64,000 nt of DNA from Corallococcus sp. EGB (lineage in GTDB: Bacteria; Myxococcota; Myxococcia; Myxococcales; Myxococcaceae), in assembly GCF_019968905.1 (NCBI RefSeq), contig NZ_CP079946.1, forward strand, positions 5,665,356 through 5,729,355, in the 5' to 3' direction. The first letter of the stretch is position 1. Each line of letters opens with the position of its first letter. The notes beneath the pieces are model-generated. The model was not told where the DNA came from and did no database searches. It saw only the letters and a list, made by a program, of their open reading frames with translations. This document shows, piece by piece, positions 42,686 to 51,673 of this stretch. The position numbers and the translations under genes were made by a program.

Positions 42686-42862
42686 CCTTTCGTCACTCCA
42701 GGCTGTGCCCACGCCGCCCGTTTCCGGTCCTCCGGAAGCGAGGCGGCGTTCTCGTGTGCGTGTCAATACCTCTCACGGGGGATGCCCGCGTCGCCGGGAA
42801 TGCGCCACAACCTGGAGTGCCAGGTCGTCCCACCCATGACGACCCGGGGGGCGAACCCATCC

Positions 42863-45800
42863 ATGAATCCGCACGACTTGGTCCTGCTGAAAGAGCTTCA
42901 GCGGCAACGCACCCGGTTGCTGGATCTGAGCGCGACCAACCGGCTCCTCAACTTCAAGCACACGGCCAGGACGTCGCTGCGAATCGTGGATGAGCTTCCA
43001 GGCGTCGTCTTCGAGCGGCTGAGCAACCACCGCGCGCTCACCTTCCTCCCGGTGCCGCCTCCGGAAACAGAACCCGGGCATGAGGCTTCCGACCCCACCG
43101 CCGCGACCGTGGTGTTCTCGATGACGGAGGAGAGCACCAGCAGGGACTCCCGGCAGAGGCTGCTGCTTCAACAGGCGAAACGCCTGGGCATCGACACCCG
43201 GTATGAGCTGCCGCAGGCGGGCGCGGCGGAAAGCGGCACCAGTCCTCGCAAGCACCAGGACCGCCATCTGCAGACGCTGTACTTCCCGGAGGATCTGGAG
43301 AGCCACCTGCACCGCCTCCATGGCCTCGCACAGACGGCCATTCAGGAGACAGGGGCCAACCTGCTCCACATCGCCTTCGGATTCCTGCGTTGGTACGAGT
43401 CCGGCGATTCGCGGCAGGAGAAGCCCCGCTGCGCGCCTCTGGTGCTCATGCCCGTGAGCCTCAAGCGCGGCCAGGCCCACCCGGACACGCAGGTCCATGC
43501 CTACGAGGTGGACTACAACGAAGGCGAGTCCATTGAGCTGAACCTCACGCTTCAGGAGAAGTTGAGGCAGGAGTTCGGCATCACACTGCCTGCATTCTCC
43601 GCGGAGGAAGGGCTGGAGGCGTACTTCGCGAAGGTGACGGCGCTGTTGAAAGGCCTTCGTCCAGGATGGGGCCTGGAGCGACAGGTGACCCTGACGCTGC
43701 TGTCCTTCGGACGGCTCCTGATGTGGCGGGACCTGGAACCCTCTCGATGGCCGCAGAACAGCCCCCTGCTGACGAACCCGCTCGTCCGGACGTTGATGGG
43801 AGGCCAGGCCCAGGCGAACGAGCCAGGCGGAGGAGGCGCAGCCATCCGGGAACGCCGGAACGAGGTCTACGACCTGGACGCGCCGGAGGCTTCTCCCCCA
43901 CCGCTCATCACTGACGCGGACAGCAGCCAACACAGCGTGCTGGTGGATGTGCTTCGAGGCGAGAACCTGGTGGTGCAGGGGCCCCCAGGCACCGGGAAGT
44001 CACAGACCATCACCAACCTCATCGGCGCGGCGCTGGCGGCGGGCAAGACCGTGCTGTTCGTCACCCAGAAGCTGGCGGCGCTGGAGGTCGTCTCGCGCCG
44101 TCTCCAACAGGCCGGGCTGGGCGAGTTCTGCCTGGAGCTCCACAGCCACAAGACCCAGAAGCAGCAGTTCATGGAGGACCTGCGCCGAAGGCTCAAGCTG
44201 GATGCGAATGCAGGCGCACCCCGCCCACTTACCGAACAAGTCTCAAGCGCGGCCAGCATCCTGCGCGCTCATTCCGAGCGAATGCACAAGCCATTCGGGA
44301 TGCTCGGCATGTCACCGCACGACGTGTTCTGGAAGGTCAGTCGCGCCGAAGCGGAACTGGGCGATGCGGTTGTTGAACTGGATGGCCTCCGCTTCGAGGG
44401 CGCAGAAGAAATGTCCCCCACGTCCCTGGCGGAGGTTCGCGACGCGGTTCGGGGGCTCGCGGCGCAACTGGCGGACGTCCGCCGCGTTGCCCCTCTCCCC
44501 TCGGCCCATCCCTGGGCGGGGGTGACGAACGACGCGCTGACCGACAAGGAGCGCCAGACGCTCATTCAACGGTTCGCATCCTGGGAGGAGTCCGCGCTGC
44601 GCCTGGAGAAGGCGCTGGCTGCCTTCACCACCCGCACAGGCGTCACGCCCAGGTCGAGCGTACTCGCGGCGGATGCCCTGGTCTCCGCCGTCCGGGTTCT
44701 GCCGCCGCTTCCAGAGGGAGCACCTCCGGAACTGGTCCCTGTCCTCCTTGATTCAGCGCAACGCGAGGGATTGCGCACCCTGCTCGACGCCATCGAGTCG
44801 GTCCAGGCGCAATGGGCAGGGTTGGAGGCGGGCTGGCGTTCCCAGGAGGCTCTGACTGCGCCCGCGCTGCGTGCAGCGGAGGCCGTCCTCGACATCGCCC
44901 TGCGCCTGCTTTTCCCCGACACCACGATGGTCACCCTGACACGCGCGCACGAGGCCGTGGGAGGAGCGGCCCGGGCCCTGGAGCAGGGACGCAGGTTCAT
45001 GACCGCCGTGGCCTCCAGCCTGGAAGTCGACGTCTCGCTCTGGACGCCTCAACAGCTCCAGATTTTTGCCCGCGTCATCGAAGCGATGGCGGCTCTGGAC
45101 GAAGCGACTTTGGAGTGGCGGGACGCACGGTGGGTCGAGCGCGAGGTCGAGGAATCGCTTCGGCAGGCCCACGGCACCTGCTCCACATTGAAGGAGCAGG
45201 CGCGGGCGCTCTCTGTGCGCTTCATGCCCGAGCTCGTTCCTCCGCTCGCGACGCTCAAGGCGCATGCCGTCGCGGTCTCGACGGCGCCATTCATTCCCTG
45301 GCTTTCGAGCCCATGGCGTGCCGCGCGACGGGACTTCCAGGCGATGGCCCACGGGGTCCGTCCGACGCGGCCCGTGTTGAGCCAGGGCTACACGGATCTG
45401 CTGGCGCATCACGCCGCACGAGAGCGCTTCCATGAAGACGCGGCCTTGAAAGCGGCCCTGGGCGCCCGCTTCCAGGGAATCGACACGCGCTTCGACCGGA
45501 TCCTTTCGTGGTTGGACGCCTACCGGACCATCGATGCGTTGCTCCTTCCCCTGGGAGAACGGGGAGCGGAGCTCCGCCGCGCAGTGTTGGAGCGACCGGC
45601 GAGCCATTGGCGAGAGGCCCTGGCGAAGGCCCGAGTGCTGGGCGAAGACCTGCCCCAGGTCCGCGACGTCAGCGCTTCGGTGCAGGAAGCCGCGACTCGC
45701 ATGGGCCTGCCTCACGCGCCCTGGAACACCGAGCCCTGCGGCAAGGCCCAGGACAGCCTCGACGCCCTGCTGAAGCACCTGGGCGAAGTCCTCAAATGGG

Positions 45801-48058
45801 CACGGATGGGGGACGCTTCGCCTTCCCTGCCCCTTTCCCAGCTCCAAGGCCAGCTGCGCAGGGTGCGCGAGGCCTGCGAAGCCGAGGAGCGGCTGGAGGC
45901 CCACGCTCCCGCGGCGGCATTGCCTGGGGTGGTCTACCGGGGCCGGAAGACGTCCATCGCGGGGCCCCGAAGCGCCCTCCGCCATGTCGATGACGTTTTC
46001 TCAGCGCCGCTGCCAGAAGGACTCGCGGAATGGCTGCTGCGCGAGGACACCCCACGCAGGCAGGCGGACCTGCTCACGGCCACGAACGAGGTCGAGGCAG
46101 CACTTGTCGCCTACAAGGAGTCCGCCGCTCAGGCATGGGGACTGGGGAAGATGGCCCCGGGCGCCTGGGAGGACCTCGCCGCCGAGAAGCCGCTTCAAGC
46201 GACGGTCATGCGCCTGCGTCAGGCTCGCGAGCGGGCCGCGACGCTCCCAGCCTGGTGCGCGTACCAACGGCAGAGACGCGCCGTCGCACGAACGCGGGGA
46301 ACCACGGGCTTCCTGGAGCGCGTCGATACACGTCCTGGACTGGAGCCGGATCGACTGCTCGCGGCTTTCGAAGCCGTCTTCTTCCGCACCCTGGCGGAAG
46401 CCGTCCTGCGCGACCAACCGGAGCTCGACCAATTCACGGGCGCCGTCCACGCATCCCAGCGCGAGGAATTCGCGCGCCTGGACACGCATTGCATCGAAAA
46501 GCAGGGCCGCTATCTGGCGCGGCAACTCAGCCAGCGTCCGGTTCCTTCTGGCGTGTCCTCGACGAAGGTGGGGGCCATGACGGAGACCCACCTGCTCAAG
46601 CACGAGTTGGGAAAGAAGCAGCGCCATCTCCCCATCCGTGAGCTGGTGGCACGTGCCGGCAGTGCACTTCAGACGTTGATGCCCTGCTTCATGATGGGGC
46701 CGCAGTCGGTTGCCCAGTACCTACCCGCCGGACAGCTGACCTTCGATCTGGTGGTGATGGACGAGGCCAGCCAGATGCGCCCCGAAGATGCGTTGGGAGC
46801 CATTGCGCGAGGACGCCAGCTGGTGGTGGTGGGTGATCCGGAGCAACTCCCTCCCACCAACTTCTTCGCCCAGGTGGAGCAGGAGGACGTCGCTTCTGAC
46901 GACGAAGAAGGCGACGAAGCCCAGGGGCCATCCTTCCTGGAGGATTCAGAGAGCATCCTCACGGCGGCAGCGGAGCGGTTCCCCACGCGCATGTTGCGCT
47001 GGCATTACCGCTCACGCCACCCCGCGCTCATCGCCTTCAGCAACCGTGAATTCTACAACGGCGACCTCATCACCTTCCCCGCTCCAGGCGAACAGTTGGA
47101 GGGACTGGGACTCCACTTCCACAAGGTGGAAAAGGGGCTGTACGAGTCCAACCGGAACGTTCCCGAAGCCCGCGAAGTGCTCGCGAAGGTGAAAGAACAC
47201 GCGCGTACGCGTCCCGAGCAGAGTCTGCTGGTCGTCACGTTGAACTCGAAGCAGCGCGACCTCATCGACGACCTGGTGACGGCCGAGGAGAAGACAGACG
47301 CGAGCCTCCGGGCCTTCCTGGCGAAGTGGGAGAAGTCTCCCATGCCCTTCGATGTGAAGAACCTGGAGAACGTCCAAGGCGACGAGCGCGACGCCATCTT
47401 CGTGTCGGTCACGTTCGGTCCCGACAAGAACGAGAAGTTCCGGATGAACTTCGGCCCGATCAACCAGGCGGACGGGTATCGCCGGCTGAACGTCCTCTTC
47501 ACGCGGGCGCGGTGCGCGCTGACGGTGTTCGCGTCCTTCGAACCGTCGGATCTCAAAATCCAGGAGAGCAGCCCCCGCGGGATGCGCGTCCTCCAGCGGT
47601 ACCTGTTCGAAGCCAGAGGCGAAGCCGTGGCACATGGTGTTGGGAGCGGCCGGCCCCCGGACTCTGACTTCGAGCTCGCCGTCGCGAAGGCGCTCACGGC
47701 GCGAGGATTCGAAGTGGTTCCCCAGGTGGGCGTCGCCGGGTACTTCATCGACATGGCCCTCCGGCATCCCCGGCAGCCAGGCCGATACATCCTGGGTGTC
47801 GAGTGTGACGGCGAGCGGTATCACTCATCGCGCTCCGCGCGGGACCGCGATCGCCTTCGCGACCAGGTGTTGAAGGGCCTCGGGTGGAACCTTCACCGCA
47901 TCTGGTCCACGGATTGGTTCCGCTCACCTTCGGAAGAGGTCGCCCGCATCGTCGCGCACGTCGAAGCGCTGCTCCGTGAGGAAGCGGCAGCGGAGCTTCC
48001 AGCCGTGGTGCGCGAGGAGCCCCTGGCGGAAAACCAGATGCGCGCCGTCAGCGCCTGA
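42863..48058 (+). CDS. Giant SF1 (Upf1-like, AAA_11/AAA_12) helicase with an N-terminal DUF4011-like region and a C-terminal Vsr/DUF559-like PD-(D/E)xK endonuclease domain. Architecture resembles Hhe-type defense proteins.
   Basis: Walker A VVQGPPGTGKSQTITNLI at about 43975-44030. Walker B/motif II LVVMDEASQM at about 46750. AAA_12 region (VTFGPDKNEKF...LNVLFTRARCALTVFAS). C-terminal GVECDGERYHSS...RDRDRLRDQVLKGLGWNLHRIWSTDWF matches the DUF559/Vsr-like fold. The start could be 42836 instead. Confidence 0.88.
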   Translation: MNPHDLVLLKELQRQRTRLLDLSATNRLLNFKHTARTSLRIVDELPGVVFERLSNHRALTFLPVPPPETEPGHEASDPTAATVVFSMTEESTSRDSRQRLLLQQAKRLGIDTRYELPQAGAAESGTSPRKHQDRHLQTLYFPEDLESHLHRLHGLAQTAIQETGANLLHIAFGFLRWYESGDSRQEKPRCAPLVLMPVSLKRGQAHPDTQVHAYEVDYNEGESIELNLTLQEKLRQEFGITLPAFSAEEGLEAYFAKVTALLKGLRPGWGLERQVTLTLLSFGRLLMWRDLEPSRWPQNSPLLTNPLVRTLMGGQAQANEPGGGGAAIRERRNEVYDLDAPEASPPPLITDADSSQHSVLVDVLRGENLVVQGPPGTGKSQTITNLIGAALAAGKTVLFVTQKLAALEVVSRRLQQAGLGEFCLELHSHKTQKQQFMEDLRRRLKLDANAGAPRPLTEQVSSAASILRAHSERMHKPFGMLGMSPHDVFWKVSRAEAELGDAVVELDGLRFEGAEEMSPTSLAEVRDAVRGLAAQLADVRRVAPLPSAHPWAGVTNDALTDKERQTLIQRFASWEESALRLEKALAAFTTRTGVTPRSSVLAADALVSAVRVLPPLPEGAPPELVPVLLDSAQREGLRTLLDAIESVQAQWAGLEAGWRSQEALTAPALRAAEAVLDIALRLLFPDTTMVTLTRAHEAVGGAARALEQGRRFMTAVASSLEVDVSLWTPQQLQIFARVIEAMAALDEATLEWRDARWVEREVEESLRQAHGTCSTLKEQARALSVRFMPELVPPLATLKAHAVAVSTAPFIPWLSSPWRAARRDFQAMAHGVRPTRPVLSQGYTDLLAHHAARERFHEDAALKAALGARFQGIDTRFDRILSWLDAYRTIDALLLPLGERGAELRRAVLERPASHWREALAKARVLGEDLPQVRDVSASVQEAATRMGLPHAPWNTEPCGKAQDSLDALLKHLGEVLKWARMGDASPSLPLSQLQGQLRRVREACEAEERLEAHAPAAALPGVVYRGRKTSIAGPRSALRHVDDVFSAPLPEGLAEWLLREDTPRRQADLLTATNEVEAALVAYKESAAQAWGLGKMAPGAWEDLAAEKPLQATVMRLRQARERAATLPAWCAYQRQRRAVARTRGTTGFLERVDTRPGLEPDRLLAAFEAVFFRTLAEAVLRDQPELDQFTGAVHASQREEFARLDTHCIEKQGRYLARQLSQRPVPSGVSSTKVGAMTETHLLKHELGKKQRHLPIRELVARAGSALQTLMPCFMMGPQSVAQYLPAGQLTFDLVVMDEASQMRPEDALGAIARGRQLVVVGDPEQLPPTNFFAQVEQEDVASDDEEGDEAQGPSFLEDSESILTAAAERFPTRMLRWHYRSRHPALIAFSNREFYNGDLITFPAPGEQLEGLGLHFHKVEKGLYESNRNVPEAREVLAKVKEHARTRPEQSLLVVTLNSKQRDLIDDLVTAEEKTDASLRAFLAKWEKSPMPFDVKNLENVQGDERDAIFVSVTFGPDKNEKFRMNFGPINQADGYRRLNVLFTRARCALTVFASFEPSDLKIQESSPRGMRVLQRYLFEARGEAVAHGVGSGRPPDSDFELAVAKALTARGFEVVPQVGVAGYFIDMALRHPRQPGRYILGVECDGERYHSSRSARDRDRLRDQVLKGLGWNLHRIWSTDWFRSPSEEVARIVAHVEALLREEAAAELPAVVREEPLAENQMRAVSA

Positions 48059-48071
48059 CAAGGAGATCTCC

Positions 48072-49640
48072 ATGACCACGATCATTGCCATCGGCCTGGG
48101 CACGGCGTGCCTGTTGCTCCTGGGGCTGTGGATTCAGAAGAGAAGCCAGCTGAAAGCAGTGCAGGAGCGCTTCAAGCCCATCCTGGACCTGGAGGCCGAA
48201 CGGCGCCGGGTCGCCGAGGAATTGACGAAAGCCCGAGCGGACGCGGACGCCGCGATGGCCTCTGAGCAGAAGCGGGTCCAGAACGAGCTGGCGAAGGCCC
48301 GGAGCGAGGCGGACAGTGCGCTGGCAACTGAACGGAAGCGGGTGGAGACCGAGCTCGCGAGGGCCAAGGCGGACGTGGAACAGGCCATCGCGGCGGAACA
48401 GAATCGGGCGAAGGCCGAGCTGAACCGACTCCGAGAAGAGACGACCCGGACGACGCAAAGCGCGACACGGGCCATGGAGGAGGCTGAAGCACGCCGGAAG
48501 CAGGCGAACGCCGAAAGGACCAGCCTGGAGACAGGCATTGCCCGGCTGAAGGCCGAGTTGAAGGTGCTGGAAGAGGAGGAGGTGCTGCTCTCCTTCGGCT
48601 TCTACAAGCCGGTGTACGCGCTCTCGTCCGTCAAGGAGTACGAGGACCGGCTGGAGAGGGTCCGCGAAGCACAGAAGCAGATGCTGAAGAACAAGGAGGC
48701 CGCCACGTGCTCCATGACGTGGGAGGTGAATGGGAGCAAGGCGGAGGGCAAGAAGCAGATCGACCGGACCTTGAAACTGATGCTCCGGGCCTTCAACGGC
48801 GAGGCGGATGCGTGTGTCGCCAAGGTCTCCTACAAGAACGTAAAGGCCATGGAGACGCGCATCGAGAAGGCGGCCGCCGCCATCAATGGTCTCGTGGAGA
48901 TCCAGAAGTGCGTCATCGCCAGACGCTACGTCAAGCTCAAGGTCGAGGAGCTGATGCTCGCGTACGAATACGCGGAGAAGGTGCAGCAGGAGCGGGATGA
49001 GCAGCGCCGCATCCGTGAGCAGATGCGTGAGGAGGAAGCGGCCCAGCGTGAGCTGGAGAAGGCGAAGCTGGAGGCGGAACGCGAGGCAAAACGTGACGCC
49101 GAGGCCCTGGCGAAGGCAAAAGCGGACTACGAGCAGGCCAAGGGCTCAGAACAGCAGAAGCTGATGGAGCGCATCGCGGAGCTGGAGCGCCGCGTGGCGG
49201 AGGACCTGGAGAAGCAGCGAGCCATCTCCCAGGCTCAGCTCACGAGAACGGGGCATGTCTACGTCATCTCGAACATCGGCTCATTTGGCGAGGGAATCTT
49301 CAAGCTGGGGATGACCCGGCGGCTGGTACCCCAGGACCGCATCGACGAACTGGGAGACGCCTCGGTGCCCTTCGAGTTCGACGTTCACGCCATCATCCGG
49401 ACCTCGGATGCACCGGGCTTGGAGAACGCCCTACACAAAGCCTTCGCGAACCGGCGCGTCAACCGCATCAACGAGCGCAAGGAGTTCTTCCGCTTCAGCC
49501 TGGATGAAATCGCGGATGCCGTGCGCAAGCACCATGGTGAGTTTGAGCTGACCCGGATTGCTGAAGCTGCGGAGTACAGAAAGTCACTGGCGTTGCAGGG
49601 AGAGGAGAAAAACAATCCCGGTCAAAAAACCGCCGCGTAG
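48072..49640 (+). CDS. Membrane-anchored coiled-coil protein with a DUF4041-like charged N-terminal region and a C-terminal T5orf172 (GIY-YIG-like) domain
   Basis: AGGAG RBS 6 nt upstream, 13 nt after the helicase stop. N-terminal TM helix MTTIIAIGLGTACLLLLGLWI. Three 22-aa repeats (ELxKARxxADxAxAxExKRVxxELA). The C-terminal HVYVISNIGSFGEGIFKLGMTRR...RIDELG matches T5orf172/MUG113. Confidence 0.85.
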   Translation: MTTIIAIGLGTACLLLLGLWIQKRSQLKAVQERFKPILDLEAERRRVAEELTKARADADAAMASEQKRVQNELAKARSEADSALATERKRVETELARAKADVEQAIAAEQNRAKAELNRLREETTRTTQSATRAMEEAEARRKQANAERTSLETGIARLKAELKVLEEEEVLLSFGFYKPVYALSSVKEYEDRLERVREAQKQMLKNKEAATCSMTWEVNGSKAEGKKQIDRTLKLMLRAFNGEADACVAKVSYKNVKAMETRIEKAAAAINGLVEIQKCVIARRYVKLKVEELMLAYEYAEKVQQERDEQRRIREQMREEEAAQRELEKAKLEAEREAKRDAEALAKAKADYEQAKGSEQQKLMERIAELERRVAEDLEKQRAISQAQLTRTGHVYVISNIGSFGEGIFKLGMTRRLVPQDRIDELGDASVPFEFDVHAIIRTSDAPGLENALHKAFANRRVNRINERKEFFRFSLDEIADAVRKHHGEFELTRIAEAAEYRKSLALQGEEKNNPGQKTAA

Positions 49641-49915
49641 TGAGTGAATCCTCAACAACCACACCCACTACCGTGACGGCCCTTGTTCTCCTGCCCTCCG
49701 ACGATGCGCCTCCTCCAGGCGTCTTGCGTTGGCTCATCTCCTGCGACGAATCCGGAACAGGCGGTTCACCCTCTTACGGCTTCGGGATGCTCTGGATGAA
49801 CTGGCAAAGGAGCGGGGGCTTCTCCGAACTGATCCGGAGTTCCGAAAGAAGTCCGGTGGGAGATTGACAAACGAGCGCCTGGGAGGGAACCGCGTCGTGT
49901 AGGGTCACTCGTGCC

Positions 49916-51673
49916 ATGACTCTTCACCGTTTCCTTGGGCTTCTGCTGGCGCTGCTTCCCCTCCATGTCGGCGCTGTCCCGATGCCCGCGGACCCGTTGG
50001 TGGGCATCTGGGGCAGTGAGCGCGTCCTGGGTCCTCAAGTCCGGGGTGAACTGACGCTGGTTCAGGATGGGAGCGCCTGGCGCGCTCGCATCGCGGGCTT
50101 CGACGTTCCTGCTCGGGTCGATGGCCGGAAGGTCTCTGTCGTCCTCCCCGGTAAGCAGGGCGAGCTGAGGGCGACGCTTCCAGAGAATGGCCAGAGCATC
50201 ACGGGCCACTGGATCCAGCCGCGCGTGCTCATGAGCGGCATGAAGTTCGCCAGCCCGGTGGAACTGCGCTCCCTTCAGCCCGGGGTCTGGCGCGGAGTCG
50301 TGGCACCACTGGAGGACCGGTTCTCGCTGTATCTCGTCGTCCAGAAGCAGCCGGATGGCTCCGTGACGGCGTTCATCCGCAACCCGGAGCGGAACTTCGG
50401 CAACCGGATGCTGTTCCGCGTGGAGCTCCAGGACCGCACGGTCCGGTTCACGTCCACGAAGGGAGGCACGCAGTTCGAAGGCACGTTCGACGCGCAGTCC
50501 GGACGGCTGTCCCTCCCCTACCCTCCGTTCGACACGACGTTCGACTTCACCCGCCGCGACCGCGCGCAGGCCGTGGGCCTCTATTCCCGTACTCCCGCTT
50601 CTGGCCCCTACGCCTACCAGAAGCCCGTCGCCGAGGACGACGGCTGGACCACGGCGGCTCCGGCCGACGTCGGCATGGACGTCCAACCGCTCCAGCAGCT
50701 CGTACAGCGCATCCTCGACCAGGAGCCCAGCCAGGAGCCCGTGCCCGCCATCCAGGGACTCCTCGTCGCCCGCCACGGGAAGCTGATCCTCGAAGAGTAC
50801 TTCCAGGGCTTCGACAAGGAGCGTCCCCATGACCCGCGCTCCTCCTCCAAGTCCTACGCATCCCTGCTCATCGGCATCGCCCTGGACCAGGGCGCCCCCT
50901 TCACCGTGGACACGCCCGTCGTCTCACTCTTCCCCGAGTACAAGGGCAAGCTCTCCAACCTGGACGCGCGCAAGCGCAAGCTCACCGTCGCGCACCTGAT
51001 GACCATGTCGACAGGCCTCGCCTGCGACGACGACGACCCGGCGTCTCCTGGAAATGAGGACCGCCTCAAGGACTCCGTACCGGATTGGTACAAGTACACG
51101 CTGGACCTCCCCATGGTCCGCGCTCCCGGCGAGAAGGCCGTGTACTGCTCCGCGAACATCAACCTGCTGGGCGGCGTCCTCCGCAACACCACCCGCATGT
51201 GGATTCCGGAGTTCTTCACCCAGAACGTCGCCACGCCACTCCAGATGCGCGGCTACCACCTCGACCTGATGCCCAACGGCGAGCAGTACCTGGGCGGCGG
51301 CATCTACATGCGGCCTCGCGACGCACTGAAGCTTGGCCAGCTCTACCTGTCCGGTGGCACCTGGAACGGCAAGCGCGTGGTCAGCCAGCGCTGGGTGGAA
51401 CGCTCCATCGCGAACCACGCCACCATGGAGCCCGGAAAGACCTATGGCTACACGTGGTGGCGCCACGAACTCCGTGTCGGCGACCGCGTGTATTCCGAGT
51501 ACGAGGCCAGTGGAAACGGCGGTCAGCTCGTGATGGTCGTCCCGGAGTTGGACCTCGCCGTGATGTTCACCGCGGCCAATTACAACCACGTCTCCATCTG
51601 GCGGAAGTTCCGCGAAGAGCTCCTCCCCCGCTTCATCATGGCCGCGGTCTCCGCGAACAACACGCAGCCCTGA
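49916..51673 (+). CDS. Beta-lactamase-family serine hydrolase (class C / PBP4*-like transpeptidase fold) with an N-terminal accessory domain
   Basis: Signal peptide. SxxK motif SSSKSY. YxN-like and KTG-like regions. 585 aa. Confidence 0.82.
   Translation: MTLHRFLGLLLALLPLHVGAVPMPADPLVGIWGSERVLGPQVRGELTLVQDGSAWRARIAGFDVPARVDGRKVSVVLPGKQGELRATLPENGQSITGHWIQPRVLMSGMKFASPVELRSLQPGVWRGVVAPLEDRFSLYLVVQKQPDGSVTAFIRNPERNFGNRMLFRVELQDRTVRFTSTKGGTQFEGTFDAQSGRLSLPYPPFDTTFDFTRRDRAQAVGLYSRTPASGPYAYQKPVAEDDGWTTAAPADVGMDVQPLQQLVQRILDQEPSQEPVPAIQGLLVARHGKLILEEYFQGFDKERPHDPRSSSKSYASLLIGIALDQGAPFTVDTPVVSLFPEYKGKLSNLDARKRKLTVAHLMTMSTGLACDDDDPASPGNEDRLKDSVPDWYKYTLDLPMVRAPGEKAVYCSANINLLGGVLRNTTRMWIPEFFTQNVATPLQMRGYHLDLMPNGEQYLGGGIYMRPRDALKLGQLYLSGGTWNGKRVVSQRWVERSIANHATMEPGKTYGYTWWRHELRVGDRVYSEYEASGNGGQLVMVVPELDLAVMFTAANYNHVSIWRKFREELLPRFIMAAVSANNTQP

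What the first reader, a model, noticed from the sequence alone, without database searches (positions are those of the whole stretch)
48072..49640. The T5orf172 partner protein has an N-terminal TM anchor and three tandem 22-aa charged repeats
Residues 1-21 (MTTIIAIGLGTACLLLLGLWI) form a single hydrophobic helix. Downstream of the anchor the sequence is ELTKARADADAAMASEQKRVQN / ELAKARSEADSALATERKRVET / ELARAKADVEQAIAAEQNRAKA, a near-periodic 22-residue unit mirrored in the DNA at about 48210-48410, followed by a long Glu/Lys/Arg-rich coiled coil. Only the final ~130 aa carry the GIY-YIG-like T5orf172 fold (HVYVISNIGSFGEGIFKLGMTRR...DRIDELG). A membrane-tethered coiled-coil stalk presenting a small nuclease-like domain is unusual for T5orf172 proteins, which are often short and cytoplasmic. 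It may act as a ruler or oligomerisation element.
Basis: seen in the sequence. Interest (0 to 1): 0.65.

Follow-up and report, generated by a model that had tools for sequence, protein, structure and literature searches.

The report
Membrane-anchored SNIPE-type anti-phage nuclease
This gene encodes a Corallococcus member of the published SNIPE (PD-lambda-1) family of membrane-anchored nucleases that cut phage DNA as it is injected, so the architecture is already known and only the locally duplicated 22-residue stalk is a small new detail.

Summary
ORF 48072-49640 (+, 522 aa) has one N-terminal hydrophobic helix (aa 3-21). It has three tandem 22-aa repeats (aa 50-115, nt 48219-48416; 0 of 500 shuffles reach the score), which are also seen in the DNA. 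A T5orf172/GIY-YIG domain lies at aa 394-490.

The interpretation that this is unusual does not hold. The protein matches the PADLOC PD-Lambda-1 model at E = 1e-151. It is 48% identical over 355 residues to E. coli SNIPE, whose architecture was published in 2022 and 2026: TM anchor, long helix, DUF4041, helical linker, GIY-YIG nuclease. The catalytic Glu of SNIPE (E414) aligns with E451, which is invariant in the homologues aligned.

The upstream Hhe-like helicase-nuclease is not an obligate partner. It is adjacent in only 8 of 80 genomic loci. C. exercitus carries the SNIPE homologue alone at the same chromosomal site.

The repeats are lineage-specific. There are 3 copies in the closest Corallococcus orthologues, 2, 1 or 0 in others, and E. 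coli SNIPE has no significant internal repeat. Related homologues carry stalk duplications of 11, 29 or 40 aa.

Verdict: new member of a known kind, low interest.

The parts
48060..48065 (+). Shine-Dalgarno-like AAGGAG, 6 nt before the ATG at 48072
   Evidence: Read directly from the sequence. The start is supported by orthologue N-termini.
48072..49640 (+). SNIPE / PD-lambda-1 family gene (522 aa plus stop)
   Evidence: PADLOC PD-Lambda-1 E = 1.3e-151, covering aa 91-519. 48% identity to E. coli SNIPE over aa 158-512, E = 4e-109. More than 7,700 homologues, all of the 120 listed carrying DUF4041 plus T5orf172 and/or MUG113.
48072..48134 (+). N-terminal single-pass transmembrane anchor (aa 1-21; hydrophobic core aa 3-21)
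   Evidence: KD-19 maximum 2.28. AF2 helix aa 5-33. Conserved in 110 of 120 homologues. Basic residues K23, R24 and K28 on the C-terminal side imply a cytoplasmic body, as shown experimentally for E. coli SNIPE (PMC13190303).
48189..48593 (+). Long uninterrupted alpha-helical stalk (aa 40-174, about 135 residues)
   Evidence: AF2 models a single helix aa 40-174; pLDDT is 52-79 over aa 41-80 and 86-92 over aa 81-160. Composition is 41% charged and 21% Ala. There is no significant Pfam match. This region is not conserved with enterobacterial or phage homologues.
48219..48416 (+). Three tandem 22-aa repeats (aa 50-115) within the stalk
   Evidence: Lag-22 score 123 against 32.7 +/- 7.3 in shuffles. 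TRF period 66 nt. Repeat-HMM copy number is 3, 2, 1 or 0 among homologues. Hydrophobic periodicity is about 3.66 residues, hendecad-like but weak.
48597..48920 (+).
   Evidence: Pfam PF13250, 71.8 bits against a cut-off of 27. AF2 pLDDT 92-98. Many invariant residues, such as W217, G226, K228, R239, F241, N242, G243, E244 and K266. In E. coli SNIPE this domain binds DNA and the phage tape measure protein (PMC13190303).
48921..49250 (+). E/K/R-rich helical linker (aa 284-393; helices 284-355 and 359-393)
   Evidence: AF2 secondary structure. 48% charged residues. Corresponds to the 'downstream alpha-helix' of SNIPE (PMC13190303).
49251..49541 (+). GIY-YIG (T5orf172 / MUG113) nuclease domain (aa 394-490), with catalytic-Glu equivalent E451
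42782..48058 (+). Upstream neighbour: Hhe-like / PDC-S37-like DUF4011 helicase plus MTES_1575 nuclease. This is context, not a demonstrated part of the SNIPE unit.
   Evidence: Pfam DUF4011, AAA_11, AAA_12 and MTES_1575. PADLOC PDC-S37 1252 bits and Hhe 935 bits. NCBIfam Hhe 1417 bits, below the 2000 cut-off. Adjacent to SNIPE homologues in only 8 of 80 loci.
49640..49867 (+). Truncated remnant (75-aa ORF) of a DUF3800 gene immediately downstream (context)
   Evidence: 82% identity over 50 aa to the N-terminus of the 278-aa DUF3800 protein that follows the SNIPE homologue in C. exercitus.

Best explanation
The gene encodes a Corallococcus homologue of SNIPE (PD-lambda-1), a single-gene anti-phage system.

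By homology with the E. coli protein, the N-terminal helix anchors the protein in the inner membrane with almost nothing exposed to the periplasm. The rest of the protein lies in the cytoplasm: a ~135-residue helical stalk, the DUF4041 domain, a helical linker and the GIY-YIG nuclease. Tethering keeps the nuclease away from the chromosome. When a long-tailed phage injects its genome, DUF4041 contacts the tape measure protein and the incoming DNA at the injection site, and the nuclease cuts that DNA. This distinguishes self from non-self by location.

The N-terminal region is the fast-evolving adaptor or spacer of the family. In this lineage it grew by tandem duplication of a 22-residue helical segment to three copies.

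Shown here: family membership by sequence, domain order, the TM hydrophobic helix, the GIY-YIG fold, conservation of the catalytic Glu, the reality of the repeat and its variable copy number, and the lack of a conserved partner gene.

Inferred from the literature on the E. coli protein: membrane topology, DNA cleavage during injection, tape-measure binding and anti-phage function.

Inferred only: any role of stalk length.
For: PADLOC PD-Lambda-1 E = 1.3e-151. Pfam DUF4041, T5orf172 and MUG113 all score above their gathering cut-offs.

The E. coli reference (WP_074500416.1, annotated 'SNIPE associated domain-containing protein') carries all nine residues named in the SNIPE paper. It aligns at 48% identity, E = 4e-109, with E414 opposite E451.

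No neighbour gene family is shared beyond a single small clade of closely related genomes across 80 loci. The SNIPE homologue occurs alone at the same abcF-flanked site in C. exercitus.

The published mechanism and the published statement that the N-terminal region is highly variable in length and sequence are in PMC13190303.
Against: No experiment exists for any myxobacterial homologue. E. coli SNIPE gains much of its potency against lambda from ManYZ, and whether any comparable host factor exists in this organism was not examined. The stalk is 155 residues from TM end to the GFYKP motif, against 111 in E. coli SNIPE, and the stalk sequences are unrelated. Adaptor interactions therefore cannot be transferred.

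The tight 13-nt spacing to the Hhe-like gene is conserved in seven related genomes. This leaves room for co-expression or cooperation in this clade. No dedicated TM or coiled-coil predictor and no multimer model could be run.
Confidence: 0.8

Rival explanations
1. The Hhe-like helicase-nuclease and the DUF4041-T5orf172 protein form a dedicated two-gene system (sensor helicase plus membrane effector) in this clade, as the first reader's word 'partner' implies.
For: The genes share a strand, with a 13-nt gap and a Shine-Dalgarno-like site but no promoter-like or terminator-like site between them. The same layout is found in seven related genomes although the helicase diverges to 68-89% identity. 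One further locus (L019) has a 41%-identical Hhe-like gene next to a SNIPE homologue in convergent orientation.
Against: 72 of 80 SNIPE-homologue loci have no Hhe-like gene within 10 kb. C. exercitus has the SNIPE homologue alone at the same abcF-flanked site. Six metagenome Hhe-like loci (40-50% identity) have no SNIPE homologue in their flanks. PD-lambda-1 is a single-gene system in E. coli (PMC13190303; PMC9519451). PADLOC and NCBIfam hold stand-alone models for Hhe and PDC-S37, and a published defence-system inventory lists Hhe as a one-gene system (PMC11232893). The convergent arrangement in L019 fits defence-island co-location, not an operon.
Confidence: 0.1
2. The 22-aa repeats are a functionally neutral by-product of replication slippage or unequal recombination in a compositionally simple helical spacer. 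Stalk length and repeat number do not matter.
For: The repeats are absent from most homologues (77 of 121 sequences score 0 copies), and E. coli SNIPE has no significant internal repeat. Stalk length ranges continuously from 64 to 183 aa with no clean quantisation. The region is Ala- and charge-rich with few strong hydrophobic residues. Low sequence conservation of the N-terminal region is reported for the family (PMC13190303).
Against: The three-copy state is retained in all 13 closest homologues despite 9-19% divergence. Independent duplications of 11, 22, 29 and 40 residues recur in related homologues (z = 8-15). All of these lengths are whole numbers of helical turns at about 3.63-3.67 residues per turn, which suggests selection to keep a helix face in register. 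The SNIPE authors propose that the N-terminal region acts as a specificity adaptor.
Confidence: 0.35
3. The protein is not a defence factor but a membrane-tethered GIY-YIG nuclease with a housekeeping or toxin role, for example in DNA uptake, repair or contact-dependent killing.
For: No functional data exist for Myxococcota homologues. Sources have given homologues unrelated names such as 'chromosome segregation ATPase' and 'AcrA'.
Against: Identity to a characterised anti-phage protein is high across the functional core. Distribution is patchy. The gene sits at a variable site that also carries an Hhe-like gene, a SIR2-like gene or DUF3800 in sister genomes. Homologues occur in temperate phages and phage-plasmids. 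GC content is 62-64% against about 70% in the flanks.
Confidence: 0.05

Closest known systems
[quoted passage not shown] 2022, PMC9519451; Saxton et al. 2026, PMC13190303)
   Same: The domain order is the same: N-terminal single TM helix, long helix, DUF4041, helical linker, GIY-YIG/T5orf172 nuclease. Identity is 48% over the DUF4041-linker-nuclease core. The catalytic Glu is conserved (E414 / E451). It is a single gene with no conserved partner.
   Different: The stalk sequence is unrelated and longer: 155 against 111 residues from TM end to the GFYKP/GFYEP motif. It contains three 22-aa tandem repeats, whereas E. coli SNIPE has no significant internal repeat. The gene is chromosomal in a myxobacterium next to an Hhe-like gene, not inside a lambdoid prophage. 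The host factor (ManYZ in E. coli) and the target phages are unknown here.
Pfam T5orf172 (PF10544) / MUG113 (PF13455) domains of the GIY-YIG superfamily
   Different: The domain is a module, not the whole protein. Here it is the effector at the end of a 390-residue membrane-anchored scaffold.
Hhe / PDC-S37 DUF4011 helicase-nuclease single-gene defence candidates (the upstream neighbour)
   Same: The upstream ORF has DUF4011, SF1 helicase (AAA_11/AAA_12) and MTES_1575 endonuclease domains, and hits the PADLOC Hhe and PDC-S37 models strongly.
   Different: It scores below the NCBIfam equivalog cut-offs for Hhe (1417 against 2000) and ProA (1148 against 1500). It is a separate system that is co-located here, not part of SNIPE.

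Membership tests
SNIPE / PD-lambda-1 | Full-length sequence match to the family profile | tested here: met
   PADLOC PDLC03977, E = 1.3e-151, aa 91-519 against model positions 51-482 of 496. BLASTP to E. coli SNIPE gives E = 4e-109 at 48% identity.
SNIPE / PD-lambda-1 | Central DUF4041 domain | tested here: met
   PF13250, 71.8 bits against a cut-off of 27, aa 235-290. The region is globular with pLDDT 92-98 in the AF2 model.
SNIPE / PD-lambda-1 | C-terminal GIY-YIG nuclease with a catalytic Glu (E414 in E. coli SNIPE) | tested here: met
SNIPE / PD-lambda-1 | N-terminal membrane-targeting element (a TM helix in about two thirds of homologues) | tested here: met
   KD-19 = 2.28 at aa 3-21, followed by basic residues, with an AF2 helix at aa 5-33. 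This rests on hydropathy only; DeepTMHMM was not available.
SNIPE / PD-lambda-1 | Acts as a single gene, with no conserved partner | tested here: met
   No neighbour family is shared beyond a single small clade of closely related genomes in 80 loci. An Hhe-like gene is adjacent in 8 of 80.
SNIPE / PD-lambda-1 | Inner-membrane localisation with N-out / C-in topology | not testable with these tools
   Needs fractionation or PhoA-LacZalpha fusions as in PMC13190303. The positive-inside pattern is consistent with it.
SNIPE / PD-lambda-1 | Cleavage of phage DNA during injection, tape-measure-protein contact, and protection against siphoviruses | not testable with these tools
   Experimental properties of the E. 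coli protein only.
   8 of 80 loci from the SNIPE side. 0 of 6 from the helicase side. The SNIPE homologue occurs alone at the same site in C. exercitus.
Canonical (heptad) coiled coil | Hydrophobic periodicity of 3.5 residues and oligomerisation | tested here: inconclusive
   The repeat region peaks at about 3.66 residues (hendecad-like) and aa 116-174 at about 3.5, but both signals are weak. Only 14-20% of residues are strongly hydrophobic. The monomer AF2 model shows a single straight helix. No multimer prediction was possible.

The most novel reading that the evidence does not exclude
The stalk of myxobacterial SNIPE homologues may be an evolvable 'ruler'. Tandem duplications of whole numbers of helical turns (11, 22, 29 or 40 residues; 0-3 copies of the 22-mer) would tune the distance or geometry between the inner membrane and the DUF4041-nuclease head. 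That would retarget the system to different phage injection machineries. In the Corallococcus clade the operon-like pairing with an Hhe-like helicase-nuclease may additionally reflect functional cooperation between an entry-stage and a later-stage defence.
Probability: 0.15. Interest if true: 0.45.

Novelty: new member of a known kind. Interest (0 to 1): 0.2.

Why it matters
The finding mainly serves as an annotation. It identifies a SNIPE-type entry-stage defence gene in a myxobacterium, placing this recently characterised mechanism in the Myxococcota. The gene sits at a small variable defence site between abcF and a serine-hydrolase gene.

The only element beyond the literature concerns the N-terminal stalk, which the SNIPE authors reported as variable in length and sequence. 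In this clade it changes length by tandem duplication of helical segments. That gives a natural allelic series of 0, 1, 2 and 3 copies. The series could be used to test whether stalk length matters for a membrane-tethered nuclease.

It does not open a long-standing question, and a specialist would not be surprised by it.

Tried and rejected
- Sequence and profile searches of the PDB found no solved relative, only weak coiled-coil noise.
- Pfam on the N-terminal 175 aa at E <= 10 gave only sub-threshold coiled-coil families.
- tblastn of the stalk against 50,697 phage records found no match, so there is no evidence that the stalk mimics a phage protein.
- A Rayleigh test for quantised stalk length (periods 7, 11, 22 and others) over 102 homologues showed no clean periodicity. 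It is also confounded by relatedness, so it was not used.
- A literature search for 'ProA' (the NCBIfam name that hits the upstream protein below its cut-off) found nothing relevant.
- The promoter and terminator scan found no promoter-like site, no + strand terminator-like site, and no excess of terminator-like sites over shuffles around the gene pair.
- The longer ORF from GTG 47976 was rejected as the start, because orthologues begin at the ATG-48072 Met and an AAGGAG precedes it.
- The Salmonella plasmid homologue was tested as a stand-in for E. coli SNIPE and rejected, because none of the nine published residues matched. The correct E. coli reference was then found.

Full report
**What is there**

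The ORF at 48072-49640 (+) encodes 522 aa. Its ATG is preceded by AAGGAG at 48060-48065. It lies 13 nt after the stop codon (48056-48058) of a 1758-aa ORF on the same strand. Orthologue N-termini begin at the same methionine, so the mechanically longer ORF from GTG 47976 is not the gene.

**Checking the observation**

The N-terminal helix is real by hydropathy.
- The Kyte-Doolittle 19-residue maximum is 2.28 at aa 3-21. The next-highest value anywhere in the protein is 0.94.
- Basic residues (K23, R24, K28) follow it and no charged residue precedes it.
- AlphaFold2 models a helix at aa 5-33.
- A comparable hydrophobic N-terminus is present in 110 of 120 homologues. The exceptions that were inspected are truncated or start late.

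The repeats are also real.
- Three 22-aa units lie at aa 50-115 (nt 48219-48416), with 13/22, 10/22 and 8/22 pairwise identity.
- The lag-22 similarity score is 123, against 32.7 +/- 7.3 in 500 composition-preserving shuffles. None of the shuffles reaches it.
- Tandem Repeats Finder sees the same array in the DNA: period 66 nt, 2.3 copies, 73% matches, 48226-48379.

The C-terminal T5orf172/MUG113 match covers aa 394-486.

It contains a globular DUF4041 domain (Pfam aa 235-290, 71.8 bits; AF2 globular region about aa 176-283 at pLDDT 92-98). A charged helical linker follows at aa 284-393.

**What it is**

The protein hits the PADLOC PD-Lambda-1 models at E = 1.3e-151 over aa 91-519. PD-lambda-1 was found in a functional screen of E. 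coli. [quoted passage not shown]

In 2026 it was renamed SNIPE and dissected (PMC13190303). The published findings are:
- It has a single-pass TM domain with a periplasmic N-terminus.
- The DUF4041 domain binds DNA and contacts siphovirus tape measure proteins.
- The GIY-YIG nuclease cleaves phage DNA during injection.
- Removing the TM domain makes the nuclease toxic to the host.

I recovered the E. coli reference (WP_074500416.1, annotated 'SNIPE associated domain-containing protein') from the E. coli genome collection. It carries all nine residues named in the paper: E223, N250, L253, W257, E264, K305, I308, T319 and E414. The window protein is 48% identical to it over aa 158-512 (E = 4e-109). 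The catalytic E414 aligns with E451, which is invariant across 101 aligned homologues.

**Is it a 'partner' of the upstream helicase?**

The upstream protein has DUF4011, an SF1 helicase and an MTES_1575 endonuclease domain. It matches PADLOC PDC-S37 and Hhe, and stays below the NCBIfam equivalog cut-offs for Hhe and ProA. The evidence on partnership is as follows.
- Among 80 genomic loci that encode relatives of the SNIPE homologue, an Hhe-like gene lies within 10 kb in only eight. Seven are close relatives with the same layout, including a Myxococcaceae bacterium at 81% identity. One is a MAG with a 41%-identical Hhe-like gene in convergent orientation.
- In C. exercitus the SNIPE homologue lies directly after the same abcF gene, with no helicase.
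- Clustering all neighbouring ORFs found no family shared beyond one small clade of closely related genomes. The recurrent neighbours that were examined (serine dehydratase, a protein kinase, a TerB-domain protein) carry no recognised defence domain.
- Six metagenome loci with Hhe-like genes at 40-50% identity have no SNIPE homologue in their flanks.

The pairing is therefore best read as two single-gene systems stacked at a variable site. Cooperation within this clade cannot be excluded.

The site itself turns over.
- C. coralloides KYC2213 adds a SIR2-like gene and a pentapeptide-repeat gene.
- C. exercitus has a DUF3800 gene after the SNIPE homologue.
- The window retains only a 75-aa remnant of that DUF3800 gene at 49640-49867 (82% identity over 50 aa).
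- GC content is 62-64% over the SNIPE gene, against about 70% in the flanks.

**The repeats in context**

A repeat HMM gives these copy numbers:
- 3 copies in all 13 closest homologues (at least 81% identity)
- 2 copies in homologues of about 500 aa
- 1 copy in homologues of 476-479 aa
- 0 copies in 77 of 121 sequences

Other Myxococcaceae homologues carry independent, highly significant stalk duplications with periods of 11, 29 and 40 residues (z = 8-15). E. coli SNIPE has no significant internal repeat (z = 0.8). The lengths 11, 22, 29 and 40 correspond to 3, 6, 8 and 11 helical turns at about 3.63-3.67 residues per turn. The repeat region's weak hydrophobic periodicity peaks at 3.66. This fits duplications that preserve the register of one helix face, but that is inference.

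Stalk length from TM end to the GFYKP motif ranges from 64 to 183 residues in 102 homologues. It is 155 here and 111 in E. coli SNIPE, with no clean quantisation. [quoted passage not shown] That paper does not mention tandem repeats.

The stalk has no significant Pfam match and no match in phage genomes. The conserved core does occur in temperate phages and phage-plasmids.

**Mechanism, and what is shown versus inferred**

Shown here:
- family membership by sequence, and domain order
- the hydrophobic anchor
- the GIY-YIG fold and the conserved catalytic Glu
- the reality of the repeat and its copy-number variation
- the absence of a conserved partner gene

Inferred from the E. coli work:
- N-out / C-in topology
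- auto-inhibition by membrane tethering
- DNA and tape-measure binding by DUF4041
- cleavage of incoming phage DNA

Inferred only: that stalk length or the repeats tune specificity or oligomerisation.

**Verdict**

The architecture is the published signature of a known defence family, not an oddity, and the 'partner' label is not supported. This is a new member of a known kind with a lineage-specific repeat expansion in the family's known variable region. Interest is low (0.2).

Noticed in passing
window 42782-48058 (+): A 1758-aa DUF4011 / SF1-helicase / MTES_1575-endonuclease protein. It hits PADLOC PDC-S37 (1252 bits) and Hhe (935 bits) but stays below the NCBIfam equivalog cut-offs for Hhe (1417 against 2000) and ProA (1148 against 1500). 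It is probably a distinct subfamily of Hhe-like single-gene defence proteins.
   Followed up: partly
window 49640-49867 (+): A 75-aa ORF that is a truncated remnant of a DUF3800 gene. It is 82% identical over 50 aa to the N-terminus of the intact 278-aa gene that follows the SNIPE homologue in Corallococcus exercitus (L007:11505-12341). This points to cargo decay at this site.
   Followed up: yes
window ~42690-49900; L002:4714-15030; L007:9800-15216: The interval between abcF and a serine-hydrolase (beta-lactamase-like) gene is a variable site in Corallococcus. The window has Hhe-like plus SNIPE. C. coralloides KYC2213 adds a SIR2_2-domain protein and a pentapeptide-repeat protein. C. exercitus has SNIPE, DUF3800, an unknown ORF and a kinase, but no helicase.
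   Followed up: partly
homologues P0019, P0026, P0035, P0037, P0066 (not in the window): Independent stalk tandem duplications with periods of 29, 29, 11, 40 and 11 residues (z = 8-15 against shuffles). Together with the 22-mer, all these lengths are whole numbers of helical turns at about 3.63-3.67 residues per turn. E. coli SNIPE has no significant internal repeat.
   Followed up: partly
L081 (Salmonella Infantis plasmid pZ1322HSL0046-3) 2557-4086: A 509-aa DUF4041 / SNIPE-family gene sits inside a phage-like tail module. It lies between tail-tube and KilA-N genes and the tape measure gene, so it is next to the class of protein that SNIPE is reported to bind.
   Followed up: no
L019:10001-16494 (Myxococcaceae MAG): A second, apparently independent co-location. 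A SNIPE homologue is followed 140 nt downstream by a convergently oriented Hhe-like gene that is only 41% identical to the window's. This may reflect defence-island clustering or a weak functional affinity.
   Followed up: no
window 48000-49999: GC content drops to 62-64% over the SNIPE gene, against about 70% at 38-41 kb. The coding strand has a strong positive AT skew (up to 0.32), reflecting the A/G-rich Glu/Lys/Arg/Ala codons.
   Followed up: no
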